Of a DNA stretch of 64,000 bases, positions 40,358 to 60,027 are shown piece by piece (position 1 is the stretch's first letter; every line of letters begins with the position of its first letter). The notes under the pieces are model-generated. The model saw nothing but the letters and a program-made list of their open reading frames with translations. It was not told the DNA's origin and did not search any database. Source of the DNA: an uncultured Gammaproteobacteria bacterium (GTDB lineage Bacteria; Patescibacteriota; Microgenomatia; Levybacterales; GWA1-39-11); contig CAZXND010000002.1 in the NCBI GenBank assembly GCA_964641355.1, positions 1,005-65,004 on the forward strand. The letters are read 5' to 3'. A program made the translations under genes and the position numbers.

Positions 40358-40393
40358 AGTAAAGACCAGATAATAAAAATGATAACTATAAAT

Positions 40394-41158
40394 TTATCTT
40401 TCTTTATTTTCATTATTATAAATAAGATAAAGTTTTCCCCTTACAAGAAATGAATAGAGGCTCATAAACACAGACATAACGAATCCTTGAATTCCATCGA
40501 AAAATCCTAATTTAATAAAATAATTATAACTAAACTTTCCAATTGGAAAGGCAATTATTCCTAGCAGTCCTACCTTTATTCCTTGCTCATACAGTTCATT
40601 TGCTCTTAAAGTCGAATAATAATTAATCTCAGAAAGAAATTCACTAATTTGCGTATGTGAAGTGTGAAGAAGATCTCCTTGAATAAAAGCCACATTCTTT
40701 ATTTTCCAAATTTCATGAACCTTACCCGTCCATTCTCCTCTTCCCTTTCTCCCCAACCTTGTTAATCTAATATTTTTTGTTTCACCAAACTTTAGTTTTT
40801 TTCCACCAAAAATATCTACTCGCTTTATCTTGTATCCATCGTATTTTGAATCTGAATTAACAACTCTTCTAATATTTTCCTTCAGAGTAGAGCTTAATTC
40901 TTCATCTGCATCAAGGAATAAAATCCAATCTGTCTTGCATTTCTCAATGGCAAAGTTTCTTTGTGCAGAAAAATCATTATTGAGATCTCTCTCATATAAT
41001 TGAACCTTTTTTGATTTAAAGCTTTTTACTACTTCAACGGTATGATCTGAGGAATTATCATCAACTATAATTACATCTCCAAGATCTTTTACGCTTTCGA
41101 TACGATTAACTATGTTAGCTTCTTCGTTTTTTGTCAGAATAACAGTCGTTATATTCAT
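40394..41158 (-). CDS. glycosyltransferase family 2
   Basis: 'VILTKNEEANI', 'VIIVDDNSSDHT' and the 'FLDADEEL' DxD motif. Confidence 0.8.
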   Translation of the reverse strand: MNITTVILTKNEEANIVNRIESVKDLGDVIIVDDNSSDHTVEVVKSFKSKKVQLYERDLNNDFSAQRNFAIEKCKTDWILFLDADEELSSTLKENIRRVVNSDSKYDGYKIKRVDIFGGKKLKFGETKNIRLTRLGRKGRGEWTGKVHEIWKIKNVAFIQGDLLHTSHTQISEFLSEINYYSTLRANELYEQGIKVGLLGIIAFPIGKFSYNYFIKLGFFDGIQGFVMSVFMSLYSFLVRGKLYLIYNNENKER

Positions 41159-42525
41159 CTTTTTTGCCGATATAAATATATTTTACCGTCTTTCTCTTCA
41201 ATTACAAACTCCAAATCTGCTTTTTTAGATAAATTCCCACCTAAATACCACGTCAAATAATCATAGTTATTTGTAAAGCTTGAGAATTCACTTCCCTCAC
41301 CCTTTCCTTTAAGTAAAAAAGTTGAATTATTTGCAGATTTTATTATTTTTTTTGAAATTCGAAGTCTATCTTTATAAAAGTTTTGATTAGTGCCTGAAAA
41401 ATAATTACTCGAGAGTAAGGAATAAATATTAACCGAAGAAATAATTAACGCGATGAATATTCCTAAATGTTTTTTTTTGATTGAATCAAGAAAAAGAGCT
41501 AATGAAATAATAACTATAGGAAAAAATATTGGCAAATATGCATCTGATGGCGTTTTGTTTATAGTAAACGCAATAAGCGGAATAAATATTGTGATAAACA
41601 ATGTTAAATCTTTTATGTTCTTCCTTTTTTTATAAATATAAAGTAAAGAGAACATTGAAGACAAAAACAAAAAAAGAGAAATTGGTAAGCTCAGAGGAAA
41701 TATTGTTTTTTTTAAAAAAAGTGAAAAAAAAGTCAGGAAATCAATCATAAAGTTACTAGAACTCCCTCCGAAGATCAATGATCTTAAGGGAGAAATAAAA
41801 ACCCATGCAGCGAATTTTAAGGTCTGATTGAATCCATGTGAAAAATCATAAATTATTACCGGAATTAAAGGAAAAACGAAGCAGGCAATACTACTTACAA
41901 ATAATTTCTTATTCATGTGACTTTTAATATACTTAAAATTTATAAAAACCACCGATGCAAAAACAAGCCAAAGAACTTGAGTTGCAAGCTCAAAGTTATA
42001 TAAGATCGAAAGAAATAAGATAACTAGTGGCACCGATTCAATTTTTTTCAAAGAAACTTTCACAAGAAAATAAAAGAACAAGAGAGTGAATAAGGGAATT
42101 AGACTCGTATGATACGGCATTCGAGATGAGAGAATTATATAAGGAGAGAAGGCATAAAGGATTGACGAAAAAATTGCCACTTTCTGAGAGTACAATTTTA
42201 GACTTATATAGTAAACCAAGACAACACAAATGGCGTCAAGAAAAGCAGAAAAGTAACCAGGGGCAAGTGGGTTAAATCCAAATAACGTAAAAATAACACT
42301 CAAAATATAGGTCCAAAATGGACCTTGATGAACCCAAACATGACTCGATGCAATTCCCACAAGAGGAATAGATTTTTCTAAAATAAAACTCCGCGCTGAT
42401 AAGTAAAACCATCCCTGATCTCCAATAAAATACATCAAGTCATTAATTTTATATATTCTCAAAAGAAATGAGGTGAAGAAAATCAATAAAATAAAAATAA
42501 CGGAGACTTTTTTCTTGGATATCAT
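41155..42525 (-). CDS. ArnT/PMT_2-like (GT83) membrane glycosyltransferase
   Basis: 'GDQGWFYLSARSFILEKSIPLVGIASSHVWVHQGPFWTYIL' aligns to the ArnT loop 'DE.RYAEIAREML.SGDWLVP.LNGEPYFEKPPLFYWL'. 456 aa, polytopic. Confidence 0.6.
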   Translation of the reverse strand: MISKKKVSVIFILLIFFTSFLLRIYKINDLMYFIGDQGWFYLSARSFILEKSIPLVGIASSHVWVHQGPFWTYILSVIFTLFGFNPLAPGYFSAFLDAICVVLVYYISLKLYSQKVAIFSSILYAFSPYIILSSRMPYHTSLIPLFTLLFFYFLVKVSLKKIESVPLVILFLSILYNFELATQVLWLVFASVVFINFKYIKSHMNKKLFVSSIACFVFPLIPVIIYDFSHGFNQTLKFAAWVFISPLRSLIFGGSSSNFMIDFLTFFSLFLKKTIFPLSLPISLFLFLSSMFSLLYIYKKRKNIKDLTLFITIFIPLIAFTINKTPSDAYLPIFFPIVIISLALFLDSIKKKHLGIFIALIISSVNIYSLLSSNYFSGTNQNFYKDRLRISKKIIKSANNSTFLLKGKGEGSEFSSFTNNYDYLTWYLGGNLSKKADLEFVIEEKDGKIYLYRQKR

Positions 42526-43373
42526 TGGAACATTTCGGGACGTACTATCTTCAAAATATTTTTTTCAACTTTCAGCAGTAGGAAAAGTAAAAATCCTAAA
42601 GTGCCGCTTCCATTCTTCTTATAATAATAAAGCAAGTCATTATAGTAAATATCAAGCTTTTTCCAACCAAGTTTTTTAACACTTGCAGAAACAGTATGAA
42701 TAACTTTCGCATTCCCAAGATGTAGAATTCTATACCCTTTCTTCTTTATTCTGAGACAGAGATCGTTTTCTGTATAATAAAGCAAGAATTTAGAGTCATA
42801 CCCACCAATCTCTCTTAATATTTTCGTTCTAACCATCAAAAATGCGTCACTAGTAACGTCGACATCAAAATCAAAAAGCCTATTCTGTCTTATGTATTTA
42901 TATTTATTAATCAATTTCTTATTTTTTAATCTTTTTCCCAAAATAGATAATTCGTAAAAATCAATCAGTGGAGTTGTAAATTTAGAACCAGTGCTTATTA
43001 TTTTTCCTTCTTCATAAATCTCTAATCCACCAATCGCGCCGATACTACTCTCTTTATCTAACCTATCTACCATCTTCTTTACTGAATTATCTGTAAAATA
43101 TGTATCAGAGTTTAATATTAAAAAATACCTCCCAGAAGCCTTACTCAGAACTTCGTTGTGTGCCTTAGTAAAAAAAAGATTTTTTTTGTTCTCGATTAGT
43201 TTTATTTGTTTAAAATTACTTTTAACCATCTTTACAGATCCATCGCTAGAAGCATTATCAACTACAATAATTTCAAATGCCACGTTTTTGGTGTGTTTAT
43301 AAATAGAGTCAAGACATCTTTTGAGAAGTTCACAAGTGTTGTACGAAACTATAGAAATAGTTACATCAATCAT
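42522..43373 (-). CDS. glycosyltransferase family 2
   Basis: 'SIVSYNTCELLKRCLDSI', 'IIVVDNASSDGS' and 'LNSDT' DxD-like motif. Confidence 0.8.
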   Translation of the reverse strand: MIDVTISIVSYNTCELLKRCLDSIYKHTKNVAFEIIVVDNASSDGSVKMVKSNFKQIKLIENKKNLFFTKAHNEVLSKASGRYFLILNSDTYFTDNSVKKMVDRLDKESSIGAIGGLEIYEEGKIISTGSKFTTPLIDFYELSILGKRLKNKKLINKYKYIRQNRLFDFDVDVTSDAFLMVRTKILREIGGYDSKFLLYYTENDLCLRIKKKGYRILHLGNAKVIHTVSASVKKLGWKKLDIYYNDLLYYYKKNGSGTLGFLLFLLLKVEKNILKIVRPEMFQ

Positions 43374-44020
43374 TTTGGGTAAGCTTTTATAACCATTTGA
43401 TAGGCAAAAAGATTTGGGAAAAATCTAGATAAGAATTTACTTATCCTAGGATATCCACCACCTACGCTGTCGATCATAAATACATCCATCTTGTATCCAT
43501 TTTTTTCGAAAAGATCTTTAAATGTTTCGGTAGTAAAAAAGTGAAGATGTGTATTATCCAAAATTCCATATTCCTGATACTCAAATTTTCCAAATAACAA
43601 ATTTTTTCTGATCGACCAGTGAGAGATATTGGGAGTAGTTACTATTAAAAAGCCGTCCTTTTTTAATAAACTTCTCCACTTTCTTACCGCCTCAAATGGA
43701 TCTCTTAAGTGTTCTATAAGAGCTGAGGCTAGTATTACATCAAATTTTCCCTTTACACTTTTAATAGTTTTTAAAGTCTCTACGTCCCCTTCAATAACTG
43801 AATCTAGTTTTTTTCTTGCTACTCGAGCTTCATCTTTAGACATTTCAATTCCAACTACGATACATTTTTTATTTTTTTTAAGATATTCACCCATAAATCC
43901 AGTAGCACAACCAATATCAAGAACTCTCGTATTTTCTGGTATTAAAGACGTAGAAAGCCTATCGATACTATTTGGATCAAGTATTTCAGGCTTAAATTTT
44001 ATATTTTTACCGTACTTCAT
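43370..44020 (-). CDS. class I SAM-dependent methyltransferase
   Basis: 'VLDIGCATGFMGEYL' motif I and 'FDVILASALIEH'. Confidence 0.75.
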   Translation of the reverse strand: MKYGKNIKFKPEILDPNSIDRLSTSLIPENTRVLDIGCATGFMGEYLKKNKKCIVVGIEMSKDEARVARKKLDSVIEGDVETLKTIKSVKGKFDVILASALIEHLRDPFEAVRKWRSLLKKDGFLIVTTPNISHWSIRKNLLFGKFEYQEYGILDNTHLHFFTTETFKDLFEKNGYKMDVFMIDSVGGGYPRISKFLSRFFPNLFAYQMVIKAYPK

Positions 44021-44023
44021 TGT

Positions 44024-45838
44024 CTAAGGTTTTTTAAATATTCCGATCATCTCAGGTTCATTTCTAAAAACATTTTCTTTATGAGTCTTACTGTATAATA
44101 GTTTAAAACCTGCTCGAGTGAGCAGGGAGTCCATAAATTTTCTATTTGGAATATTTACCCAATGACTTCTTCTAACATCTTTTGCTGGCATTGGAATCGC
44201 AAAAAATAATAGCCCTCCTCGTTTTAAGAGATTGTAACAATTATTCAAAGCAAGAGACAAATCATACATGTGTTCAAAAACATGGAAAGAAAGAATTATG
44301 TCATAGCTATTTTGTTTTAATTTTTGATCCATAAAGTGAATATCGAGTTCTTTAATGTTTTTTCTTTTTGAAAATTCAAGAGCATCATTTCCGATCTCAA
44401 TCCCAGAAATTAAATTTGAGTAATTTTTCTTAAAAAAGTCATAGCTGAAAAATTCACGACATCCTACGTCTAGTATTTTCGCCTTTTTAAAATCAATCTG
44501 TTTGTCATATTTTTTTGTAAAAAAATTCAAATACCTCACAACTGCAGTTTCTATAACTTCCGGAACAAGTGCAAGGGAGTCGCTTTTTTGATCAGCAATG
44601 TATTGTTTATAATCCAGTTCTAAAATTACCTCTAAAAGACTTTTGCCATTTAAATCTAAATTAAAGTATTTCTGTACCTTGTCTCGACTTCTTTTTATAA
44701 ATCTCTCCCTCCTACTGGGATTTACAATAAGCTCTCCCAACTTTTGTGAAATCTTTTTCTCATTAAGAGACCGAAGCAGCACTCCTTCATCATTGTTTAT
44801 TAAGGAGCGTACACCGGAAATATTTGAAGCAATTATTGCCGTGCCAAAAAACATTCCCTCAACGATCACATTTGGTTGACCTTCGTAGCCTTTTTTATTA
44901 GAGTTGGGATATGGCATGAATAGAACCGAAGCATGTAGGTACTTATTAAAAAGTTCTCTACCATAAAGCCCCGTTATTACTGAAACATTTTTTTCAAGTT
45001 TATTTTCAACTATTATTTCCCTTAACTCTTTCAAGTATTCACTATCAATATCAGGCCCAATAATCTCATACTTCCACTTTTCTTTAATATTTTTAGGTAG
45101 TAGTGAAAAAGCCCTAATTCCCAACTCAAAATTTTTTTCCCTGACTACTCTCCCTACTGAAATAATTAAATTTTCTTTACTTTTTTGCTTTTTTTTAAGA
45201 GATTCTTCTACTACTTTATAGTCATTAACGGGAATGCTATTTGGACAATATAGCGCATAAGATGTGATTTTTTTTAATCTGTTAGTAGTATTTCTTTTTT
45301 CCGATAAAATTAATTGAGAATTAAAAAGTAACGTATCATACAAATAAAAACCTTTGATGCTTGGTACAAAAGATAATAAGTTAATTAATAGGTGAATTTT
45401 TGAGTAGAAACTTTTGGGCGTAAGCCTTAGAAAACTTGTAGCGCCAAAGAATAATTTCCCGAAAGATGAAATACTATCATCTGAATCTAATTTCAGCAAA
45501 GTGAGTACATTGTTTTTGTCAGCTAAATCATTAACGAATTTAGAATATGGTCTACCTCTATAGAGAATGACTGCAAAATATTTATCAATGTTTTTTCTGA
45601 GATAGTCTCTAAAACCAGTGTTATCAAGCTGTGGCCAAGAAGAATTGGCTCCAATTCGCACTATTTCTATTCCAGACGTTTGAAATGACAAATCGATGTT
45701 CTTTTTAAGCCTCGCAGTAATAAATTCTACACTAATATCATTTTTTGCAAATAATTGAGCTAAAAGCCCAATGTTCTTATTGATAGATGTCTTATCTAAA
45801 TCGTCAAATATAATAGCCAATTTTCGCTGTGGTTTCAT
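44024..45838 (-). CDS. glycosyltransferase family 4 fused to a C-terminal SAM-dependent methyltransferase domain
   Basis: N-terminal and central GT4 region 'EGQPNVIVEGMFFGTAIIASNISG'. C-terminal 'ILDVGCREFF...YDIILSFHVFEHMYD...LLKRGGLLFF' is a Methyltransf_11-type domain. Confidence 0.7.
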   Translation of the reverse strand: MKPQRKLAIIFDDLDKTSINKNIGLLAQLFAKNDISVEFITARLKKNIDLSFQTSGIEIVRIGANSSWPQLDNTGFRDYLRKNIDKYFAVILYRGRPYSKFVNDLADKNNVLTLLKLDSDDSISSFGKLFFGATSFLRLTPKSFYSKIHLLINLLSFVPSIKGFYLYDTLLFNSQLILSEKRNTTNRLKKITSYALYCPNSIPVNDYKVVEESLKKKQKSKENLIISVGRVVREKNFELGIRAFSLLPKNIKEKWKYEIIGPDIDSEYLKELREIIVENKLEKNVSVITGLYGRELFNKYLHASVLFMPYPNSNKKGYEGQPNVIVEGMFFGTAIIASNISGVRSLINNDEGVLLRSLNEKKISQKLGELIVNPSRRERFIKRSRDKVQKYFNLDLNGKSLLEVILELDYKQYIADQKSDSLALVPEVIETAVVRYLNFFTKKYDKQIDFKKAKILDVGCREFFSYDFFKKNYSNLISGIEIGNDALEFSKRKNIKELDIHFMDQKLKQNSYDIILSFHVFEHMYDLSLALNNCYNLLKRGGLLFFAIPMPAKDVRRSHWVNIPNRKFMDSLLTRAGFKLLYSKTHKENVFRNEPEMIGIFKKP

Positions 45839-45846
45839 TATAAAGT

Positions 45847-47100
45847 TTAGGATTTTTTGTTAATAAAATACAATACAAATGAGAAAAAGCAAAGAAATAT
45901 CACTACTTGAGTTGCAATAGTAGCATAAACGGCCCCTAAAATTTGAAACTTTAAAATAAAAATGATGTTCAAAAGGATATTTAATAAAGCTCCCAGAACT
46001 GATATGTATAGATAAATTTTTTGCTTTCCTAATATTATTAGAACTTTATACAAAAGCGCAGACAAAGAAAGAAAAGGAACAAAAAATATTAGTATACGAA
46101 GTATTGGTATAGCCATGTCATATTTTGCTCCGAATATTAACGGAATTATTACCGGTGAAAAGATAGAAATAAAAATTGTTGTTGGAAAACTCCAAAAACC
46201 AATAGCAATACACGATTTATAAACTGCATTTCTAAATCTTCTTTTATCTTCTATGCCTATTCTCGATAAAGCAGGGTAAACAGCCATAACGAAAGGTACA
46301 TTCAAGAGTTGAATAAGAGAGAATGCAAATGGGCTAGCTGCATTAAAAATTCCTACACTTTTATCTCCCAGCATTCTTCCTAAAATTACAGAGTCAATAT
46401 TTGTATATACAAGAGAAGCAAATGCGGCCATTCCAAGAGGTAATCCCTCAAAAATAAAATACTTTGCTAATTTTTTATCAAATTCTACCTTTGGTAAATC
46501 GTATCTGGCCAAAGATATCCAAGACACGATAACACTCAAGATCGTGCCTACCAGCATTCCCCAAAAAATACCAGGCAGACCCAGTCCTAAATTAAATAAG
46601 ATAAAAGCGCAAAGAAGGAGAAGAATCGTATTAACGGAATTTAAAATTGCTGCAACTCCCATCCTCTCAGTACCTTCAAAGAAAAAAATTGGAGCAGTGC
46701 GAGCAATAGAAAAAAAGAGAGTTAATGAGGCAACAAATATCAAAAAGTCTGTATCTTTATCTGGAATCACCAATCCTCTAACAACAAATACAATTAAAAC
46801 CGTAATAAGCGCAAATAATTGGTTTATTACTAATGAATTTCCTAGATAAATGGTTGCCTTTTTTTTATTTTTTGCAATCTCACGAATTACAATAAGCCCT
46901 ATTCCAAGATCTGGTAAAAAGGCGAAAATACCAATGAACGAATTTACTAAATTATATTTTCCGTATTCCTCAACGCTTAAAGAATGTGCTAAAAAAACAA
47001 CCCAAATAACCCCGATAAACTTTAAAAAAATTTCTGAGAATGCAAGGAATATAGTATTCTTAAAAACGAGACCAAAATTATTACGTTGAAAAAAATGCAT
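45847..47100 (-). CDS. polysaccharide biosynthesis protein / oligosaccharide flippase (Wzx-like, MOP superfamily)
   Basis: 417 aa with 12 predicted TM segments. The N-terminal 'FLKFIGVIWVVFLAHSLSVEEYGKYNLVNSFIGIF' is typical of the PST family. Confidence 0.65.
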   Translation of the reverse strand: MHFFQRNNFGLVFKNTIFLAFSEIFLKFIGVIWVVFLAHSLSVEEYGKYNLVNSFIGIFAFLPDLGIGLIVIREIAKNKKKATIYLGNSLVINQLFALITVLIVFVVRGLVIPDKDTDFLIFVASLTLFFSIARTAPIFFFEGTERMGVAAILNSVNTILLLLCAFILFNLGLGLPGIFWGMLVGTILSVIVSWISLARYDLPKVEFDKKLAKYFIFEGLPLGMAAFASLVYTNIDSVILGRMLGDKSVGIFNAASPFAFSLIQLLNVPFVMAVYPALSRIGIEDKRRFRNAVYKSCIAIGFWSFPTTIFISIFSPVIIPLIFGAKYDMAIPILRILIFFVPFLSLSALLYKVLIILGKQKIYLYISVLGALLNILLNIIFILKFQILGAVYATIATQVVIFLCFFSFVLYFINKKS

Positions 47101-47105
47101 AAACT

Positions 47106-48227
47106 TCAGATCTTAAACTTATTCACCTTTTCAACTATGTATTCTTGATCTTTTTCGGATAAATCTGGAAAAATAGGAAGAAGAAGTATTTCCTTCCATA
47201 CTCTTTCAGTTACAGGTACGTCTGCCCTATAATCAGAATAAAGTTTGTAATGGTTTGTTGGTTCATAATGAACACTTGTTGCTATTCCATTATGTGCTAG
47301 ATAGTCAGAAAGTCTATCTCTTATTTTTGAAGAAACCTTAATTACATAATTATGATGGGAACTCTGAGCATAATTTTTTACAACAGGGGTTTCTATCCAT
47401 GAAGTTTTAGCAAACAACTTGTTATAAATCTCAAAAACTTTCTTCCTTTTTTCATTGTTTTTTTTAAGCTTAGCTAGTTGAACGAGTCCAATTGCGGCAG
47501 AAATATCATTCATTTGATATTTGTAGCCAGTTGTTACAACATTATACCTCCATTTAAGCTTTTTTGACTTTGATCGTGCCCAAGTACTTTGAGATATCCC
47601 AGACCATGCGAGAATACGCGAATCATCAATAGTTTTTTTATTTCTTCCAACCAACATTCCTCCATCACCTGTGGTTAAATTTTTAATGGCAGCAAAAGAA
47701 AAAGTAGCAAGATCACCAAAACTACCTACATGTTTGTTTTTATAATACGACCCTGTTGCATGGGCACAATCCTCAATAAGCGTTATTTTTTTATCACGAC
47801 ATAACTTAATAAGAGGAGAGAGATCAACAGGATGTCCTCCATAATGAACAACGATTATTACTTTTGTCTTTTTGGTTATTTTTCTTCCTATATCATTTAC
47901 ATCTGCACATAAATTATCTCTATCCACGTCGCAAAAAACAGGGGTGGCTCCCACCATCAGAATCGGATGGTTTGTTGCTACAAAAGTTAACGCGGGAGTA
48001 ATAACTTCATCACCAGGTGCAAGGTTACATGCAAGAAGTGCAAGGTGAAGAGCTGCAGTAGCAGAGTTTGTTGCAAGAACATTTTTTGCACCAATAAATT
48101 TCGTGAATTTTTTCTCAAACTCAAGCGTTTTAGGTCCCTGACCAATCCAATTTGATTTAATTACTTCACCAACAGCATTTATTTCATCCTCACCCATGCT
48201 TGGCTTAAACACTGGAATCATCATCAA
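47106..48227 (-). CDS. DegT/DnrJ/EryC1/StrS family PLP-dependent sugar aminotransferase
   Basis: 'PGDEVITPALTFVATNHPI' and the PLP-Lys region 'SFAAIKNLTTGDGG'. Confidence 0.85.
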   Translation of the reverse strand: MMMIPVFKPSMGEDEINAVGEVIKSNWIGQGPKTLEFEKKFTKFIGAKNVLATNSATAALHLALLACNLAPGDEVITPALTFVATNHPILMVGATPVFCDVDRDNLCADVNDIGRKITKKTKVIIVVHYGGHPVDLSPLIKLCRDKKITLIEDCAHATGSYYKNKHVGSFGDLATFSFAAIKNLTTGDGGMLVGRNKKTIDDSRILAWSGISQSTWARSKSKKLKWRYNVVTTGYKYQMNDISAAIGLVQLAKLKKNNEKRKKVFEIYNKLFAKTSWIETPVVKNYAQSSHHNYVIKVSSKIRDRLSDYLAHNGIATSVHYEPTNHYKLYSDYRADVPVTERVWKEILLLPIFPDLSEKDQEYIVEKVNKFKI

Positions 48228-48238
48228 GATTATATCAT

Positions 48239-49153
48239 CTAAAATCTTTTTATGAGAGCGTAAGTTGTGCCTAAAAGAACTGCAAAATCAGAGGTAATTT
48301 GAATCATGGGTAAATAGAGAATAGATAATATATTTTTTACAAACTTGAAATTTTTTATATATATCCATAACAGGTAAACAAAGACATATGTCAACAGAAG
48401 AGATCCGAAAAACAATTTCTCTTTGAAAAATAAAAAGAAGGTAATCAAGAAAATAAAATATCTAATAAATATGAGAAACACCTTAGGCCTAAAAATATTA
48501 GCATAAACATCACCTACGGCAAAATTAAAAAACATCAAAAACGATTCGACTATGTTTTTTCTCGGTACCCAACCAACAATTGCTCTTTTGGATACTGCTA
48601 TCCTAACTCCTGCTTTCTTCATCTTTCTTGCAAAATAGTAATCCTCACTATAGTTAAGTTTTTCCGGAAATCCTCCCAATAACTCAAATGTTTCTCTTCT
48701 TATTGCCATCGAACGAGAAGAAGGCAAAAATCCGTCTTTTGGATTGGAGACCAAAACATAAGGAGTAAGACAGGCTTCAAAAGTTGTCTCTGGTAACCCT
48801 TTATAAAAACCAGCTACGACCTTTATTTTCTTATCTTTTAAAGGGCTGGTGATTTCTCTTAACCAATTACGATCAAGGATACAACCAGCATCAGAAATTG
48901 CAATCACGCTACCTGTAGATTCATAAATAGCCTTATTTCTACCAATTGATCTATTTCCCTTAACCCTAAGCAATTTAAACGAAACACCTTTTGGGGACTT
49001 GAACTTTTTAAGCAATTTCCAAGTTCCATCAGTAGAATCAGCATCTGTAATTACTATTTCATTTGGAAGCTTTGATTGAGAGATAACGGATTCAAGAAAC
49101 GGGATAAGTGTATTTCTTTCATTATAAACAGTAGCTATAAAACTAACTTTCAT
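48239..49153 (-). CDS. glycosyltransferase family 2 with C-terminal TM segments
   Basis: 'VSFIATVYNERNTL', 'IVITDADSTDGT' and 'ISDAGC'. Confidence 0.75.
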   Translation of the reverse strand: MKVSFIATVYNERNTLIPFLESVISQSKLPNEIVITDADSTDGTWKLLKKFKSPKGVSFKLLRVKGNRSIGRNKAIYESTGSVIAISDAGCILDRNWLREITSPLKDKKIKVVAGFYKGLPETTFEACLTPYVLVSNPKDGFLPSSRSMAIRRETFELLGGFPEKLNYSEDYYFARKMKKAGVRIAVSKRAIVGWVPRKNIVESFLMFFNFAVGDVYANIFRPKVFLIFIRYFIFLITFFLFFKEKLFFGSLLLTYVFVYLLWIYIKNFKFVKNILSILYLPMIQITSDFAVLLGTTYALIKRF

Positions 49154-50267
49154 TCACTTCTACCTTCCACAATTTTAAATAACTTTTAACAAGTGATCCC
49201 CAAGTTTGCTTTTTTGCCCAATGATATCCCAAATCTGACTTCTCATCAAAACTATTAGGGTTATAACGTAGTAATTTATTTAAAAGTTCGCTCGGGGAAT
49301 TTGATACATCAATAAAACCATTAAAAGGTGAACTCAAGAGATAGTCTTTTCTTACAGGATCACTGTATAAAGAAAATATTCTTTTTTTACATATTAGAGC
49401 CTCTAGCATAGATAAATAAGACGAAGAAAAAACAAGATTTGAGTTATTGAGTAATTTTTTTAATCTTTCTCTTTGAGTAATAACATTACCCACAATTTTA
49501 GCTTTTTTCTTCATAGATCCGTCACCGAACAGATTGAATATAATTTTTACTCTCTTTTTACGAAGTTTTCTTATAACCTTGATGTAACTTGACAACGAAT
49601 TTATCTCTTCAAGTCTACCTATAAAAAGTATGTTTAGTGAACTCGTACTTTTCACGGTTTTTTTAACATTACTAGTTTTTAATTCTGACTCTTCAACTCC
49701 TCCATATGTCGTGAGATCTGATTTTACTCCATACCATTTTTCCAGATATCTTCCGACATTTATCGATCCGTCTGATAATAAATGAGACACTTTTCTCACA
49801 ATTTTTGACTTAAAAGATATAGGATATCCTTCATATCCATGAGAAGTTAAGTAAAACTTCTTAGAGAAGAGAATAATTCTAAGTGGCCAAACCCAAATAA
49901 ACACATCATGAACATGTATGACATCATAATTTTTTATTACGTTTATCATAACTAGCAACTTATACCATATAACAAACTTTTTGAAGAATCCGTCACTACC
50001 AAATTCAAGGTAAATTAGCTTTATGTTTTCGTTTTTTTTTCGCATAAAAAAGCTTGATTTGACGGCCTTTTTTTTTACTTTAGCTTCGCTAGCACTCAAT
50101 GAGCTTGTCTGATAAGCATCTTGGATTAATATTTCGTTTGTCCTTGAGCTTTCTGTAAGGATTGTTACTTCGTGTTGTCTTGCAAGTATTTTTGAAATTT
50201 CCAATACATGTCGTTCAACTCCACCCCTATTTAAGGTTATATTAGGTGTAATAAACAAAATCTTCAT
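49143..50267 (-). CDS. glycosyltransferase family 4 (group 1)
   Basis: 'MKILFITPNITLNRGGVERHVLEIS' GT4 N-terminal domain. Confidence 0.75.
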   Translation of the reverse strand: MKILFITPNITLNRGGVERHVLEISKILARQHEVTILTESSRTNEILIQDAYQTSSLSASEAKVKKKAVKSSFFMRKKNENIKLIYLEFGSDGFFKKFVIWYKLLVMINVIKNYDVIHVHDVFIWVWPLRIILFSKKFYLTSHGYEGYPISFKSKIVRKVSHLLSDGSINVGRYLEKWYGVKSDLTTYGGVEESELKTSNVKKTVKSTSSLNILFIGRLEEINSLSSYIKVIRKLRKKRVKIIFNLFGDGSMKKKAKIVGNVITQRERLKKLLNNSNLVFSSSYLSMLEALICKKRIFSLYSDPVRKDYLLSSPFNGFIDVSNSPSELLNKLLRYNPNSFDEKSDLGYHWAKKQTWGSLVKSYLKLWKVEVNES

Positions 50268-56771: not shown

Positions 56772-56936
56772 TTATCTTCTATTTTTCCTCGCTACTTGTT
56801 TTAAATTTGCACTGTAACTAATTAAACCAGTTCCATTAGAACTGCTTCCTTCACTGGAAGAACTACACAAGGCATACTTAGTATTATAGCTCTTCTCGTC
56901 AGAAATTTTGCTAACTGTTATTTTAACTCTTTTCAT
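56772..56936 (-). CDS. small ORF (54 aa), candidate RiPP precursor peptide: MKRVKITVSKISDEKSYNTKYALCSSSSEGSSSNGTGLISYSANLKQVARKNRR
   Basis: Hand-translated; below the ORF-track length cut-off. Strong SD AGGAGGTG (plus 56941-56948) 4 nt before the ATG. A Cys/Ser/Gly/Thr-rich core follows a Lys-rich N-terminal segment. Lies immediately downstream of, and co-directional with, the YcaO and SagB-type genes. Confidence 0.4.
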   Translation of the reverse strand: MKRVKITVSKISDEKSYNTKYALCSSSSEGSSSNGTGLISYSANLKQVARKNRR

Positions 56937-56957
56937 ATTTCACCTCCTTTCAATGCA

Positions 56958-57000: not shown

Positions 57001-58533
57001 TTAAGGAAACGGGTGAGGCAATGGAGGGAAAGAAGTCCAAGGATTTATTTTCAGTTTCAAATCTTGAGGCACTTTTTTTATTCTATCAAATCCCAATGGT
57101 TCTAAACCATACCCAAAAGAAATCGGGACAAAACCTAATATATAAGACCTTAAAACAACAACTCCTAGCTCACTGAGATCTTTAGGTGACATATCAACTA
57201 CAATTATTTTATTATTTTTACTTATTAGAATTTCAACTAAATCTTTTAAGCTTTTTTTATTGTCTGTATTCTTCTTTTTCAGAATTTGAGTGGTCCCCTG
57301 CCACAAAAACTCGGCTTCTTTTGCAAATTTAATGTTTCTAAATAGAGATGAGTGATGTTTAACTTTCTTTACTGCCTGGGGGTTATTCACCTTAGGGGGT
57401 TTAGAGTCATCTCTATACTCCCAATAGACCGCTTGCTCAATTTCTGATAAAGCTTTATCTATTGATCGTTGAATATTCAAGTTGGCTGCAGCTCCTAATA
57501 AAATTACCGGATTATTTTTATTTTCAGCAATTGCCATAATAATTGGTATTGTGTCTAAGGTGATATCTATAAGATGAACTTTTAAACCAAGAGACTCAAT
57601 CCTGTGAACTCTAAGCTGAAAGGATCTAGAAAGAGATTTTAGATCAATCTTAGGCAAAGAAAGTCTATTGAGCCAAACAATCATAAAAGCATCTCTTTCA
57701 ATGACTTCATATAAGCCTCTCATTAATGCATCATTGTATGAAAAACCAGAAGCCACACCATTTGAATTTGCAACCGTCAATGGGTTAGGCGCATATTTTT
57801 TCTCTATTGGATAATAAATTAAGTCGATTGGAACAAAAGTGGTTTTCTCTCCAGGGAAAATCGTTGCTTTATTCCAAAAATATTTTCTCCTTTCTGAGAA
57901 CGGTCTAATTATTAAGTTTTTTCTGTATTGCTTTTTTAGATAAAAAACTAACTGCGTGGAATCAAACAATAAGTTATTAATATCTATTAACTTGCTCTCG
58001 AATATTTTCTCCTTGGGAAGAACACCACTGTAAAACCTTTCTACTCCTTCCATTATTGCTTTTAACTCTGCAATGACCGGATCCTTATCTATTCCAGAAG
58101 TCCATTCAACTCTTCTTCTAGAACCCCGCCTAGAAACAAACTTAGCACTAAATAAAGTAGTATTAATAGGTTTATATTTTGACTTTTTAGGATCGAGTTT
58201 ATAAATTTTTTTTATAAACCCACTTCTTCCTACCACTCTATTTCTCAAGCTACAAAGTGTCTCTTCCATTGTATTTGACTTCAAAACGCTTTGCGAGTTA
58301 GAAAAATTAACAATTTTTCTCTTATGTAGTAAATTAAGCACATTGATATTTTCTTCGTTTTCTTTTGCACTGTATGCTTTTTTACCTTCTAGTATTAGAT
58401 ATAACTCCTCCATCTGTTTTTTTTTGTTTTTTGGAAATTTCAAGTGAACATTTTTATCGTATGTAATAAATTCTAAACCGTTAATTATTGGTCTTAAATT
58501 CCATTTTGAATTTATTTTTACCCACTTTTTCAT
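57001..58533 (-). CDS. YcaO domain protein (ATP-dependent cyclodehydratase-type) with ~110-aa N-terminal extension
   Basis: YcaO hallmarks: 'AIMEGVERF', 'SNGVASGFSYNDALMRGLYEVIERDAF' and the Pro-rich C-terminal tail 'PPLPHPFP' (PxPxP). Its start overlaps the stop of the upstream SagB-type gene (TAATG). Confidence 0.85.
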   Translation of the reverse strand: MKKWVKINSKWNLRPIINGLEFITYDKNVHLKFPKNKKKQMEELYLILEGKKAYSAKENEENINVLNLLHKRKIVNFSNSQSVLKSNTMEETLCSLRNRVVGRSGFIKKIYKLDPKKSKYKPINTTLFSAKFVSRRGSRRRVEWTSGIDKDPVIAELKAIMEGVERFYSGVLPKEKIFESKLIDINNLLFDSTQLVFYLKKQYRKNLIIRPFSERRKYFWNKATIFPGEKTTFVPIDLIYYPIEKKYAPNPLTVANSNGVASGFSYNDALMRGLYEVIERDAFMIVWLNRLSLPKIDLKSLSRSFQLRVHRIESLGLKVHLIDITLDTIPIIMAIAENKNNPVILLGAAANLNIQRSIDKALSEIEQAVYWEYRDDSKPPKVNNPQAVKKVKHHSSLFRNIKFAKEAEFLWQGTTQILKKKNTDNKKSLKDLVEILISKNNKIIVVDMSPKDLSELGVVVLRSYILGFVPISFGYGLEPLGFDRIKKVPQDLKLKINPWTSFPPLPHPFP

Positions 58534-59519
58534 TAAACTCTTCCCCCAATAAATAAAGTTGTTAAAACAGCCTCCAAAGGAAACTTTAACTTCACAAGTC
58601 TTGAAAATTCCTCATCCTTAAACCCAGATATCTCAACGATGCCTAAATTATTCTCAGCACACCAAAGATATGCATTCTGTGCTGCATGCCCAGCCTCTAA
58701 AAGAGCGTACCGATAACCCCTATTAGAATATTTCCTCGTAGTCTTAGCAAAATCAGCAGCTATCGCAATACATAATGACGAATGTTGTAAAAACGGTTGC
58801 TTACCAAAGAATGAAGAATTCATTTCTGGAACAGAAATTTTTTTTAAAAATTTTATTTTTCCATTATGAAAACCGTACACTCCCTTTTTAAGAGACCCAA
58901 GTTTTTTCAAACAAATAACACGTATTTTTAAGGGATACAAAGCACCTCCAGAAGGAATAGTCCCAAACCCAACTCTATTTTCTAAAGAGGCTCTTTTAAT
59001 CTTTCCGTACACTGCCCATATCACTCTATTAAATTCATCCTCACTAACTGCAGTTTTGCTGAAATTTCGCATCGAACTTCTAGCTTCCATTAGCTTCTCG
59101 AGGTAAGTTCTTGATGTAAATTTGGGAGAAAATAATCGACTATTTTCTTTAAATATACTTGCTAATTGTCCACTATCTAAGGACTTGAAATAAGCCATTG
59201 GATTAGAACTTATAAAATGATAAAGCAGATAATAACTATGGACATCTACCAGTACAGAAACGTCGAGCAACTCACTAATTACAGATACGATCTCTTTCTC
59301 CTTATACTTTTTTTTCGAAATGATATTTTCAACAATTTCTTTCCCAGTTCTAAAACCGTTGCAAAGCTTGCAAATTTCATTTACCAACGCCAAATCCGCA
59401 CCATTAAGAGTGATTAGTGTATTTGGCAAAAGAAAGCTTATTGAATCATCTTCGGTATATGAATAACCAGAAACGAATGGGTAGACGGAATTAATTTCTT
59501 TTCTTTCTTTTTTGATCAT
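58533..59519 (-). CDS. SagB-type (nitroreductase-fold) dehydrogenase with N-terminal PqqD-like RRE-like segment
   Basis: Nitroreductase/SagB motifs 'EARSSMRNF' (RRSxRxF-like), 'TIPSGGALYPL' and 'YRYALLEAGHAAQNAYLWCAENNLG'. N-terminal 'ITLNGADLALVNEICKLCNGFRTGKEIVENI' resembles PqqD/RRE. Confidence 0.8.
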   Translation of the reverse strand: MIKKERKEINSVYPFVSGYSYTEDDSISFLLPNTLITLNGADLALVNEICKLCNGFRTGKEIVENIISKKKYKEKEIVSVISELLDVSVLVDVHSYYLLYHFISSNPMAYFKSLDSGQLASIFKENSRLFSPKFTSRTYLEKLMEARSSMRNFSKTAVSEDEFNRVIWAVYGKIKRASLENRVGFGTIPSGGALYPLKIRVICLKKLGSLKKGVYGFHNGKIKFLKKISVPEMNSSFFGKQPFLQHSSLCIAIAADFAKTTRKYSNRGYRYALLEAGHAAQNAYLWCAENNLGIVEISGFKDEEFSRLVKLKFPLEAVLTTLFIGGRV

Positions 59520-59721
59520 ATGGAGACATGCACGGAGACATTATAATCCAACTTATACTCAGCTTCAATGTTTTTTATTCTAGAATTAAGAAAAATTGGG
59601 AATTACTTGAGGATCAACTTTTTTAAACATAAATCACGATTTAATCAATTAGGTTCAATTTTAGCCTAAAAAGAGGATTTGTTCAACCTTAAAGTTCTAA
59701 ACCTTATTACTTAGCTAAGAA

Positions 59722-60027
59722 TTAAGACTTTTTATTTAAAACATGAACTTGATCGGGGTAAAGAATTGTGGCTTCTGAAAAATCAAAACCATCCCAAGCA
59801 AGTCTTCGAATGCGATCAAAAGCATAAACTACAGGTAAATGTGGCATTGGACAATCTTCTGTTTTTATTAAAATAGACACTTCAGGGTGCACTTTTACAT
59901 CGAATGAACTATTAACTCCCATAAGGTTTTGTCTTACAGCTCGTTTGTATTCAGCAAAATTTATACCCACAATAACTTTATCAGCTTTACTAATTGGCAA
60001 ACTCGCTACTATAGCCTCTTTTTTCAT
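59722..60027 (-). CDS. hypothetical protein (101 aa)
   Basis: ORF between ftsZ and the SagB-type gene. No recognised motif and no SD. Confidence 0.35.
   Translation of the reverse strand: MKKEAIVASLPISKADKVIVGINFAEYKRAVRQNLMGVNSSFDVKVHPEVSILIKTEDCPMPHLPVVYAFDRIRRLAWDGFDFSEATILYPDQVHVLNKKS

What the first reader, a model, noticed from the sequence alone, without database searches (positions are those of the whole stretch)
57004..58533. Partner-less YcaO with a long N-terminal extension and PxPxP tail
The YcaO domain proper begins near residue ~115 (WTSGIDKDP...EGVERF). The preceding ~110 aa (WNLRPIINGLEFITYDK...ELYLILEGKKAYS...INVLNLLHKRKIV) are not part of any standard YcaO. They could be a second substrate-binding element that replaces the missing E1-like partner. 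The protein ends in PPLPHPFP, the proline-rich C-terminus that YcaO structures show packing into the ATP site. No TfuA, ThiF-like or RimO gene is nearby. Standalone or partner-independent YcaOs are known from bottromycin and thioamidation systems, so the chemistry could in principle be amidine or thioamide formation and not azoline. The adjacent dehydrogenase argues for azoline to azole.
Basis: partly seen in the sequence, partly recalled or inferred. Interest (0 to 1): 0.55.

Follow-up and report, generated by a model that had tools for sequence, protein, structure and literature searches.

The report
YcaO with its own leader-binding domain
This is the cyclising enzyme of a compact three-gene operon that probably turns a small Cys/Ser-rich peptide into an azole-containing natural product, and it lacks the usual helper protein, carrying instead a small peptide-recognition-like domain on its own N-terminus.

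Summary
The ORF is real: window 57001-58533, minus strand, 510 aa. It is a SagD/TOMM-type YcaO (TIGR03604 221.7 bits, cutoff 219.25) with an intact ATP/Mg site and a PPLPHPFP C-terminus. No ThiF/E1-like, TfuA or RimO gene lies anywhere in the 64 kb.

The YcaO module starts near residue 85, not 115, so the true extra domain is residues 1-84. AlphaFold models this domain confidently. Its best PDB matches are almost all RiPP recognition elements (PbtF, ThcOx, LynD, McbB, MccB, TbiB1), but E-values are weak and it has two helices, not three.

- The translationally coupled SagB dehydrogenase upstream carries its own PqqD-like recognition domain.
- A 54-aa precursor gene with a strong Shine-Dalgarno site lies directly downstream. 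Ten related loci show the same leader motif, K(L/I)xIxV(T/S)xx(R/K)(L/I/F)x(D/K)E, followed by a Cys/Ser/Gly-rich core.

Full-length relatives occur only in CPR/Patescibacteria genomes. The closest outgroups are single-chain RRE-SagB-YcaO fusions.

Verdict: this is an E1-less linear azol(in)e peptide synthetase. YcaO + nitroreductase LAP clusters in CPR were already reported by genome mining in 2020. The architecture is a new variant of a known kind. Leader binding by the YcaO N-domain is inferred, not shown.

The parts
57001..58533 (-). YcaO (D protein), 510 aa plus stop codon; SagD/TOMM-type cyclodehydratase
   Evidence: Pfam YcaO E 2e-53. TIGR03604 221.7 bits, cutoff 219.25. AF2 pLDDT 87.6, pTM 0.89. 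Foldseek: LynD E 4e-21, MusD, MJ1094, McbD.
58282..58533 (-). N-terminal extra domain of YcaO, residues 1-84; RRE-like winged-helix fold with order beta-beta-beta-beta, alpha, loop, alpha, beta
   Evidence: AF2 model of residues 1-86, pLDDT 89.1. Top Foldseek PDB hits are RREs: 8t19 PbtF E 5e-3, TM 0.53; also ThcOx, LynD, McbB, MccB, TbiB1. No Pfam or NCBIfam hit. The profile finds only 18 proteins among 1.84 billion representatives, nearly all at the N-terminus of ~500-aa proteins of this YcaO family or in short fragments (3 weak multi-stretch hits in unrelated long proteins).
57004..58281 (-). YcaO catalytic module, residues 85-510. Includes the motifs E162/E165/R166, S257-N-G259, E276/E279/R280/D281 and K360/E364.
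   Evidence: Aligns to P0016 residues 324-761. The listed residues are invariant in A1. The ExxER and SNG motifs align with MusD.
57004..57027 (-). C-terminal proline-rich tail PPLPHPFP, residues 503-510
   Evidence: Read directly from the sequence. P504, H507 and P508 are invariant in the family. The match runs to the last position of the TIGR03604 model. Fused relatives end in FPHPYT or FPHPFP.
58533..59519 (-). SagB-type FMN dehydrogenase (B protein), 328 aa; its stop codon overlaps the YcaO start codon (TAATG)
   Evidence: TIGR03605 88.4 bits, cutoff 78.4. Pfam Nitroreductase covers residues 145-323. Profile hits McbC, ThcOx and BmdC. Gene junction read.
59226..59492 (-). N-terminal PqqD-like RRE of SagB, residues ~10-98
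   Evidence: 8 of 27 family N-termini hit Pfam PqqD (best E 1e-3) and 6 of 27 hit Lant_dehydr_N. The A4 profile matches the extreme N-termini of longer YcaO-containing proteins: P0017, P0016 and L082_D clearly (E 3e-9 to 7e-6), L038_D, P0023 and P0024 marginally (E 0.007-0.02). hhalign against the YcaO N-domain gives probability 55%, E 1e-4. No structure model was made.
56772..56936 (-). Precursor peptide gene, 54 aa: MKRVKITVSKISDE (leader) followed by a Ser/Cys-rich core and a basic tail
   Evidence: AGGAGG lies 6 nt upstream of the ATG. A small gene with the same leader motif sits directly downstream of the YcaO gene in 10 loci. The gene is called in independent assemblies.
56943..56948 (-). 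Shine-Dalgarno AGGAGG of the precursor gene
   Evidence: Sequence read. The same AGGAGG-type site precedes the homologous peptides.
59540..59568 (-). Promoter-like site TTGAAG-17-TATAAT upstream of sagB (low confidence)
   Evidence: 10 of 12 consensus positions match. The number of such sites in the region is not above the shuffled expectation.

Best explanation
The gene encodes the cyclodehydratase of a three-gene linear azol(in)e-peptide (LAP/TOMM) operon: RRE-SagB, then RRE-like-YcaO, then the precursor peptide.

Proposed mechanism:
1. The 54-aa precursor is recognised through its short N-terminal leader, consensus K(L/I)xIxV(T/S)xx(R/K)(L/I/F)x(D/K)E. This is an alternating hydrophobic pattern suited to adding a strand to a winged-helix sheet.
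2. The YcaO module (residues 85-510) uses ATP to cyclodehydrate Cys, Ser and Thr residues of the core to azolines.
3. The SagB flavoenzyme oxidises the azolines to azoles.

No E1-like (C) or Ocin-ThiF-like (F) protein takes part. Recognition elements fused directly to each enzyme supply substrate recruitment instead. SagB carries a canonical PqqD-like RRE. The first 84 residues of YcaO form a divergent two-helix RRE-like domain.

What is shown: gene content, family membership, conserved active-site and C-terminal motifs, the fold similarity of the N-domain, the conserved precursor family, and the absence of E1, ThiF and TfuA genes in 64 kb and in the related loci.

What is inferred: that the YcaO N-domain binds the leader, that the enzymes act without any unlinked partner, and the azole chemistry itself.
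For: - SagD family membership above the trusted cutoff, with the match running to the last residue. The thioamidation and S12-type models score far below their cutoffs.
- Closest solved relatives are the azoline-forming enzymes MusD, TruD and LynD.
- The invariant ATP/Mg motifs and the C-terminal P..HPF are conserved.
- SagB is translationally coupled. Its K263-Y264 aligns with the K-Y of McbC.
- The N-domain AF2 model has pLDDT 89, and its PDB hit list is dominated by RREs. The PbtF RRE is also recovered when the full-length model is used as query.
- A weak profile-profile link connects the two N-domains.
- The SagB N-domain matches Pfam PqqD and the N-terminal domains of longer YcaO-containing proteins.
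- Ten loci carry a peptide gene preceded by a Shine-Dalgarno site, with one shared leader motif and variable Cys/Ser/Gly cores.
- The SagB-then-YcaO order is conserved in the 10 distinct relative loci where the upstream side is on the contig.
- Relatives fuse RRE-SagB-YcaO into one chain, so B plus D is the functional unit.
- No ThiF, TfuA, RimO or E1-like gene is in the window or among the called genes of the related loci.
Against: - The N-domain Foldseek E-values are weak (best 5e-3, the rest above 0.1).
- No Pfam or NCBIfam RRE model hits the YcaO N-domain.
- The fused RRE-SagB-YcaO relatives lack this domain, so it is dispensable in that context.
- TIGR03604 is passed by only 2.5 bits.
- No protease, transporter or immunity gene is adjacent in the window.
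- The rest of the genome, outside the 64 kb, could not be searched for an unlinked partner.
- No complex model or binding data exist.
Confidence: 0.6

Rival explanations
1. The operon and chemistry are the same, but the YcaO N-domain does not read the leader. The canonical RRE on SagB recruits the precursor for both enzymes in a B-D complex. YcaO residues 1-84 would then be a vestigial RRE or a docking or stabilising domain that replaces the covalent B-D link seen in fused relatives.
For: - The fused RRE-SagB-YcaO proteins have a single RRE and no YcaO N-domain.
- The SagB N-domain is the one that matches Pfam PqqD and the N-terminal domains of the longer YcaO proteins P0016 and L082_D, whose domain composition was not confirmed. 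The YcaO N-domain profile A2 matches none of them.
- RRE-like domains in RiPP enzymes are documented as possibly vestigial (PMC7470986).
Against: - The domain is conserved over its full length across members at 35-54% identity, and its fold is predicted with high confidence. This argues for a retained function.
- In known systems it is usually the dehydrogenase-borne RRE that is suspected of being vestigial.
Confidence: 0.3
2. The YcaO still needs an E1-like or Ocin-ThiF-like partner that is encoded elsewhere in the genome.
For: - Every well-characterised multi-site azoline-forming YcaO uses such a domain.
- Only 64 kb of the genome was visible.
- Distally encoded components are known in heterocycloanthracin-type systems.
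Against: - No such gene lies in the window or next to the family in the 10 other distinct loci examined.
- Gene fusion of B and D without a C domain occurs in sister lineages.
- CPR genomes are small.
Confidence: 0.08
3. The YcaO catalyses a non-azoline reaction on the peptide, either thioamidation or amidine formation, as a true standalone enzyme of the bottromycin or TfuA-independent type.
For: - It has no E1-like partner.
- Its second-best NCBIfam hit is the McrA thioamidation model, and MJ1094 is a good structural match.
- One family precursor (L005) has no Cys and few Ser.
Against: - methan_mark_1 scores 88 bits against a cutoff of 365, while the SagD model is passed.
- An obligatorily linked, sometimes fused, SagB azoline oxidase would have no substrate under this reading.
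- Most cores are Cys/Ser/Gly-rich.
- There is no TfuA gene.
Confidence: 0.05
4. It is a housekeeping E. coli-type YcaO acting on a ribosomal protein. The gene sits among ftsZ, ileS, rplU and rpmA.
For: The window neighbours are core genes, including L21 and L27.
Against: - NF040716 scores 24 bits against a cutoff of 700, and there is no RimO gene.
- The neighbours differ in every related locus, while SagB and the peptide gene travel with the YcaO.
- E. coli YcaO is the weakest YcaO hit among solved structures.
Confidence: 0.01

Closest known systems
LAP clusters of CPR bacteria reported by genome mining (Sharrar et al. 2020, mBio, PMC7298704)
   Same: A YcaO with an adjacent nitroreductase and a small Ser/Cys-rich precursor in Microgenomates and Parcubacteria genomes. 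That study counted 110 clusters in 93 genomes, 89 of them with a nitroreductase next to the YcaO. The present operon is almost certainly of this population.
   Different: In the passages I read, that paper does not describe the lack of an E1-like partner, the N-terminal domains or the leader motif. Its example has an 84-aa precursor and a peptidase gene. The window operon has a 54-aa precursor and no adjacent peptidase.
Microcin B17 synthetase McbBCD (PDB 6gos/6gri)
   Same: A YcaO (McbD) plus a SagB-type dehydrogenase (McbC, with an aligned K-Y motif) acting on a Gly/Ser/Cys-rich core. Some family cores, such as L008, look like microcin B17.
   Different: In McbBCD an E1-like McbB dimer carries the RRE and scaffolds the complex. 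Here there is no E1-like protein, and recognition domains are fused to B and D.
Fused cyclodehydratases LynD, TruD and MusD (RRE + E1-like + YcaO, ~750-780 aa)
   Same: These are the best solved-structure matches of the YcaO module. Both have an N-terminal recognition domain on the same chain as the YcaO, and both have a proline-rich C-terminus.
   Different: The ~230-aa E1-like domain between the RRE and the YcaO is absent. The N-domain here has two helices and no detectable sequence similarity to their RREs.
F-protein-dependent systems (heterocycloanthracin HcaF/HcaD; thiopeptide PbtF, TclI) and haloazolisins
   Same: In these systems the RRE is uncoupled from a full E1-like C protein. The PbtF RRE (8t19) is the top structural match of the N-domain.
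   Different: There the D protein keeps a truncated C domain but lacks the RRE, which sits on a separate Ocin-ThiF-like protein. Here the arrangement is reversed: an RRE-like domain is kept and the E1-like part is missing.
Bottromycin standalone YcaOs
   Same: No E1, ThiF or TfuA partner.
   Different: Bottromycin enzymes use a C-terminal follower peptide, carry no RRE, modify a single site and have no SagB-type dehydrogenase. The family here has an N-terminal leader, RRE-like domains, a SagB enzyme and multi-site Cys/Ser cores.
ThcOx/CyaGox cyanobactin azoline oxidase (PDB 5lq4)
   Same: A SagB-type nitroreductase domain preceded by RRE-like domain(s). It is hit both by the SagB profile and by the N-domain model.
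   Different: ThcOx has two N-terminal RRE-like domains and works alongside a separate full CD cyclodehydratase.

Membership tests
Azoline-forming TOMM/LAP YcaO (SagD family, TIGR03604) | YcaO domain with the conserved ATP/Mg2+-binding acidic and Arg motifs | tested here: met
   Pfam YcaO E 2e-53. E162/E165/R166, S257/G259, E276/E279/R280/D281 and K360/E364 are invariant and align with MusD.
Azoline-forming TOMM/LAP YcaO (SagD family, TIGR03604) | Score above the curated family cutoff | tested here: met
   221.7 bits against 219.25, a narrow margin. The alignment covers model positions 8-377 of 377.
Azoline-forming TOMM/LAP YcaO (SagD family, TIGR03604) | Proline-rich C-terminal motif (PxP/PxPxP) | tested here: met
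   The protein ends in PPLPHPFP. P504, H507 and P508 are invariant. The motif's role is cited in PMC7136475.
Azoline-forming TOMM/LAP YcaO (SagD family, TIGR03604) | E1-like (C) or Ocin-ThiF-like (F) partner, separate or fused | tested here: not met
   None found in the 64-kb window or in the related loci. Residues 1-84 are too short for an E1-like domain.
Azoline-forming TOMM/LAP YcaO (SagD family, TIGR03604) | Nearby precursor with a leader and a Cys/Ser/Thr-rich core | tested here: met
   The 54-aa gene at 56772-56936 and 9 homologous peptides.
Azoline-forming TOMM/LAP YcaO (SagD family, TIGR03604) | ATP-dependent cyclodehydration of the peptide | not testable with these tools
   Needs in vitro reconstitution and mass spectrometry.
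RiPP recognition element (RRE), applied to YcaO residues 1-84 | Fold similarity to solved RREs | tested here: met
   Foldseek: 8t19 probability 1.0, TM 0.53, E 5e-3. ThcOx, LynD, McbB, MccB, SuiB, TbiB1 and 6jx3 fill the top ranks with E values of 0.1-1.2.
RiPP recognition element (RRE), applied to YcaO residues 1-84 | [quoted passage not shown] | tested here: not met
   The model shows strands 3-7, 12-16, 19-23 and 28-32, helices 35-48 and 60-71, and strand 75-78. One helix is replaced by a loop.
RiPP recognition element (RRE), applied to YcaO residues 1-84 | Sequence match to PqqD or RRE models | tested here: not met
   No Pfam or NCBIfam hit. The only link is hhalign probability 55% to the SagB N-domain.
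RiPP recognition element (RRE), applied to YcaO residues 1-84 | Binds the leader peptide | not testable with these tools
RiPP recognition element (RRE), applied to SagB residues ~10-98 | Sequence match to PqqD or RRE models | tested here: inconclusive
   8 of 27 members hit PF05402 (best E 1e-3) and 6 of 27 hit Lant_dehydr_N. The profile matches the N-termini of longer YcaO proteins at 15-26 bits for P0017, P0016 and L082_D, and more weakly for three others. The profile search against PDB found only weak wHTH regulators. No structure was modelled.
SagB-type azoline dehydrogenase (TIGR03605) | Score above the cutoff and the conserved Lys-Tyr pair | tested here: met
   88.4 bits against 78.4. 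K263-Y264 is invariant and aligns with the K-Y of McbC. The catalytic role of the K-Y pair is recalled from the literature and was not re-read here.
TfuA-associated or McrA-type thioamide-forming YcaO | Adjacent TfuA gene, or a score above the TIGR03266 cutoff | tested here: not met
   No TfuA gene in the window. 88.5 bits against a cutoff of 365.
E. coli-type YcaO (RimO/S12 accessory, NF040716) | Score above the cutoff and association with RimO | tested here: not met
   24.1 bits against 700. No RimO gene. The match to E. coli YcaO has E 0.0078, against 8e-17 for MusD.
Bottromycin-type standalone YcaO | Follower-peptide substrate, no RRE, no dehydrogenase of SagB type | tested here: not met
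   The conserved motif is N-terminal, so it is a leader. RRE-like domains and a SagB enzyme are present. No phylogeny with bottromycin enzymes was made.

The most novel reading that the evidence does not exclude
This would be a self-sufficient, E1-independent azole synthetase. A minimal two-helix RRE-like domain fused directly to a SagD-type YcaO, together with an RRE-bearing SagB, replaces the E1-like or Ocin-ThiF scaffold that characterised multi-site azoline-forming YcaOs rely on. The system reads a leader of only ~15 residues. It would be the smallest LAP machinery known, confined to CPR/Patescibacteria, and it would show that the E1-like domain is dispensable for efficient cyclodehydration.
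Probability: 0.4. Interest if true: 0.6.

Novelty: new variant of a known kind. Interest (0 to 1): 0.45.

Why it matters
Characterised multi-site azoline-forming YcaOs depend on an E1-like or Ocin-ThiF-like partner that both binds the leader and boosts catalysis. [quoted passage not shown]

A natural family in which B and D each carry their own recognition domain, with no E1-like domain and a ~15-residue leader, would matter in three ways:
- It would test whether the E1-like domain is needed for anything beyond substrate delivery.
- It would provide a very compact two-enzyme toolkit for installing azoles in engineered peptides.
- It would give a handle on natural-product chemistry in CPR bacteria, which have small genomes and few biosynthetic clusters.

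The existence of YcaO + nitroreductase LAP clusters in CPR is already published. The added value here is architectural, not a new class.

Tried and rejected
- Pfam and NCBIfam scans of the isolated N-termini of YcaO and SagB gave nothing meaningful. The DUF7723 match (18.5 bits against a cutoff of 27) was dismissed.
- A profile search of the SagB family against PDB matched only the nitroreductase domain. The SagB N-domain profile against PDB gave only weak wHTH repressors with E above 0.1.
- The N-domain profile A2, tested against the N-termini of longer YcaOs (P0016, L038, L082, P0023, P0024), gave no significant match.
- P0016's 323-aa N-terminal region could not be assigned to an E1-like family by NCBIfam. 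I therefore do not claim it is a canonical CD fusion.
- The 101-aa ORF upstream of sagB (59722-60027) was considered as a cluster member. It has no family hit and no counterpart in related loci, so I rejected it.
- A strict regular expression for the leader found it only in family loci but missed variants. The motif was refined by eye.
- A literature search for the dehydrogenase 'Lys-Tyr motif' found nothing.
The CPR origin of the window is inferred from its relatives.
- The terminator and promoter scans were not above the shuffled expectation.
Full report
**Observation**

The reported feature is a real gene. Window 57001-58533 on the minus strand encodes a 510-aa protein. Pfam YcaO matches residues 152-464 with E 2e-53. 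NCBIfam TOMM_cyclo_SagD (TIGR03604) matches at 221.7 bits against a curated cutoff of 219.25, and the match runs from residue 154 to the very last residue.

The protein ends in FPPLPHPFP. The gene immediately upstream, 58533-59519 (-), is a SagB-type dehydrogenase (TIGR03605 88.4 bits, cutoff 78.4). Its stop codon overlaps the YcaO start codon (TAATG), and a purine-rich stretch precedes the start. The two genes are therefore translationally coupled.

I scanned essentially every ORF of at least 130 aa in the 64 kb with Pfam, and the ORFs Pfam left unassigned with NCBIfam. No ThiF/E1-like, TfuA or RimO protein turned up. The neighbours are FtsZ, FtsA, MurG, IleRS, FtsW, L21/L27, ParB, LepB, a glycosylation island, ATP synthase, GatAB, DnaE and others.

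**Where the extension really ends**

WTSGIDKDP begins at residue 144, not about 115. More importantly, residues ~85-150 are not foreign to YcaO. Three lines of evidence show this:
- Residues 85-510 align with residues 324-761 of a longer YcaO protein, P0016 (32% identity, E 2e-74).
- tblastn matches to YcaOs of unrelated phyla begin at query residues 78-88.
- Foldseek aligns ~455-470 columns of the full-length model to LynD.

The Pfam model simply does not cover the first ~65 residues of the structural YcaO module. The genuinely additional piece is residues 1 to about 84.

This piece is conserved along its full length in about 15 homologues of 502-521 aa at 35-54% identity. An exhaustive profile search of 1.84 billion representative proteins found it in only 18 proteins. 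Nearly all of these matches lie at the N-terminus of ~500-aa proteins of this YcaO family or in short fragments. By sequence, then, it is a family-specific domain.

**What the N-terminal domain is**

AlphaFold2 models the whole protein with pLDDT 87.6 and pTM 0.89, and residues 1-86 alone with pLDDT 89.1. The secondary-structure elements are:
- strands 3-7, 12-16, 19-23 and 28-32;
- helices 35-48 and 60-71;
- strand 75-78.

A Foldseek search of this domain against PDB returns the RRE of the Ocin-ThiF-like protein PbtF as the top hit (8t19, probability 1.0, TM 0.53, E 5e-3). ThcOx, LynD, McbB, MccB, SuiB, TbiB1 and a lasso B1 protein follow, and all of these carry RiPP recognition elements. The same PbtF RRE is also the best hit with a usable TM-score outside the YcaO structures when the full-length model is the query.

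The individual E-values are weak, but the concentration of RREs at the top of the list is hard to ascribe to chance. Against a clean assignment, the domain has two long helices and not three. [quoted passage not shown] No Pfam or NCBIfam model recognises it. I call it an RRE-like winged-helix domain.

The SagB protein also has a ~100-residue N-terminal domain ahead of its nitroreductase domain. Its consensus is ...YPLVVAYGF....FxLPGKEVTIEG....L..LL..CNGY.....I.........Y....I..LI..L....ILVDA.... The evidence that this is an RRE is as follows:
- 8 of 27 family members hit Pfam PqqD (best E 1e-3) and 6 of 27 hit the lanthipeptide dehydratase N-terminal family.
- A profile of the domain matches the extreme N-termini of longer YcaO-containing proteins. 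P0017, P0016 and L082_D match clearly (E 3e-9 to 7e-6). L038_D, P0023 and P0024 match only marginally (E 0.007-0.02).
- It shows a weak profile-profile relationship to the YcaO N-domain (hhalign probability 55%, E 1e-4).

It is therefore the more canonical recognition element of the pair. RREs on LAP, cyanobactin and thiopeptide dehydrogenases are known and have been suspected of being vestigial (PMC7470986).

Directly downstream of the YcaO gene lies a 54-aa gene, 56772-56936 (-), preceded by AGGAGG six bases from its ATG. It encodes MKRVKITVSKISDEKSYNTKYALCSSSSEGSSSNGTGLISYSANLKQVARKNRR.

In nine further distinct loci a small gene with a Shine-Dalgarno site occupies the same position. These peptides share the leader motif K(L/I)xIxV(T/S)xx(R/K)(L/I/F)x(D/K)E. 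The motif is followed by variable Cys/Ser/Gly-rich cores, often with basic tails. Examples are ...CGQCAGCGSGSCTSCR...CGNCGQCGGGGGNCGGQCGGGKCGGGK... and ...CSSSCGGGSSGSSSNG....

The gene is also called in independent assemblies of the same organism. This is a textbook LAP/TOMM precursor family. The alternating hydrophobic pattern of its short leader is what an RRE would bind as an added beta-strand. That last point is inference.

**Family, distribution and relatives**

The SagB-then-YcaO gene order holds in the 10 distinct relative loci where the upstream side is on the contig. The wider neighbourhood differs from locus to locus, so the three-gene unit is what is conserved.

Among 185,579 species-representative genomes, full-length relatives occur in only five. 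All five are CPR/Patescibacteria MAGs: 'Saccharibacteria'-labelled bins, Patescibacteria, Yanofskybacteria and WWE3. The next-closest YcaOs are single polypeptides of 735-782 aa that combine an N-terminal RRE, a SagB domain and a SagD-type YcaO. They end in FPHPYT and come from Paceibacterota, Moranbacteria and Uhrbacteria, plus two MAGs labelled Gammaproteobacteria and Bdellovibrionales.

These fusions lack the YcaO N-domain. The YcaO part begins at the equivalent of residue ~105-128. Other CPR loci have SagB followed by a 620-643-aa YcaO with a ~260-aa N-terminal region that starts with an RRE. The lineage thus shows a series of architectures, and B plus D is evidently the functional unit. 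The split form in this window is the only one in which D has acquired, or retained, its own small recognition-like domain.

**Mechanism proposed**

The leader of the precursor is captured by the fused recognition domain(s). The YcaO module phosphorylates the hemiorthoamide formed when a Cys, Ser or Thr side chain attacks the preceding amide, and eliminates phosphate to give azolines. SagB then oxidises the azolines to azoles.

What is shown:
- family membership;
- invariant ATP/Mg motifs (E162/E165/R166, S257/G259, E276/E279/R280/D281, K360/E364);
- the conserved C-terminal P..HPF;
- the SagB K263-Y264 pair, which aligns with the K-Y of McbC;
- the precursor family;
- the absence of E1, ThiF and TfuA genes.

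What is inferred: the chemistry, independence from any unlinked partner, and which N-domain binds the leader.

**Rivals**

- SagB's RRE alone reads the leader, and the YcaO N-domain is vestigial or a docking module. I consider this the serious rival (about 0.3), because the fused relatives manage without the YcaO N-domain.
- An unlinked E1-like partner exists (about 0.08). The fusions and the 10 other partner-free loci argue against it.
- The enzyme forms thioamides or amidines (about 0.05). The obligatory SagB enzyme and the family scores argue against it.
- It is an E. coli-type S12-associated YcaO (about 0.01). NF040716 scores 24 bits against a cutoff of 700.

**Comparison with what is known, and novelty**

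LAP clusters consisting of a YcaO, an adjacent nitroreductase and a Ser/Cys-rich precursor have already been reported in CPR genomes by genome mining. That study counted 110 clusters in 93 genomes, 89 of them with a nitroreductase next to the YcaO (Sharrar et al. 2020, PMC7298704). The cluster type as such is therefore not new.

In the passages I read, that report does not describe the lack of any E1-like or Ocin-ThiF domain, the recognition-like domains on both enzymes, or the conserved short leader. The field's working picture is that azoline-forming YcaOs need an E1-like or ThiF-like partner, apart from bottromycin-type standalone enzymes (PMC7136475). [quoted passage not shown]

This family is the mirror image of the heterocycloanthracin, thiopeptide and haloazolisin arrangement. 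There the D protein keeps a truncated C domain and the RRE sits on a separate protein. I rate this a new variant of a known kind, of moderate interest. No biochemistry exists, and the key functional claim, leader binding by the YcaO N-domain, remains untested.

Noticed in passing
window 56772-56936 (-): A 54-aa precursor peptide gene with a strong Shine-Dalgarno site lies directly downstream of the YcaO gene. Its leader is MKRVKITVSKISDE. The core has 1 Cys and 11 Ser, and the tail is basic (KQVARKNRR). It belongs to a conserved leader family found in 10 loci.
   Followed up: yes
window 59226-59492 (-), SagB residues ~10-98: The SagB dehydrogenase carries its own N-terminal PqqD-like recognition domain. 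This domain is more canonical in sequence than the YcaO N-domain. It matches the N-terminal domains of longer YcaO-containing proteins.
   Followed up: partly
L013:1836-4088, L014:1897-4149, L016:1783-4104, L018:1288-3495, L020:2095-4302; also P0017-P0020: Mostly CPR lineages (plus one MAG labelled Bdellovibrionales) encode single 735-782-aa polypeptides that combine an N-terminal RRE, SagB and a SagD-type YcaO, ending in FPHPYT. They have no E1-like domain. Downstream of L020 (4268-4495) is a candidate precursor ending in ...SSKGSSSSGSSQRCNNCRASAIQR.
   Followed up: partly
L001:7900-8751, L002:3708-4559, L005:3156-4064: In three relatives' loci, two of which (L001 and L002) carry the same YcaO from different assemblies, a DUF2268/GldB_lipo protein (predicted Zn-dependent protease family) follows the precursor gene. 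It may be the leader peptidase. No equivalent is adjacent in the window.
   Followed up: no
L001:2598-4226, L003:6428-8023, L007:3146-5317: Sensor histidine kinases (HisKA/HATPase_c; 7TM or GAF types) lie within a few kb of the operon in three of seven relatives' loci. This could be regulation or coincidence.
   Followed up: no
window 59722-60027 (-): A 101-aa ORF lies between ftsZ and sagB. It has no Pfam or NCBIfam hit and no counterpart in any related locus. Its status as a gene is uncertain.
   Followed up: partly
window 36067-50267 (-): A ~14-kb island of lower G+C (0.30-0.33) contains glycosyltransferases (GT2, GT4, GT1), three PMT_2-type membrane glycosyltransferases, a Wzy_C ligase-like protein, a flippase, a DegT aminotransferase and methyltransferases. 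It is a cell-surface glycan locus.
   Followed up: no
window 2722-4206 (-): An ABC-F type ATPase with two ABC_tran domains and the ABC_tran_Xtn linker. Such proteins can protect ribosomes from antibiotics. It is 53 kb from the operon, and no link to it was established.
   Followed up: no
window 25219-25974 (+): A GGDEF diguanylate cyclase domain protein sits between gatB and dnaE in what appears to be a small CPR-type genome.
   Followed up: no
P0016 (761 aa, metagenomic): This is the closest longer YcaO outside the family. It has a 323-aa N-terminal region that starts with a PqqD-like segment and contains a Rossmann-like stretch (VNVGVIDVGN...). NCBIfam does not recognise this region as E1-like. 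It may be a divergent CD fusion.
   Followed up: partly
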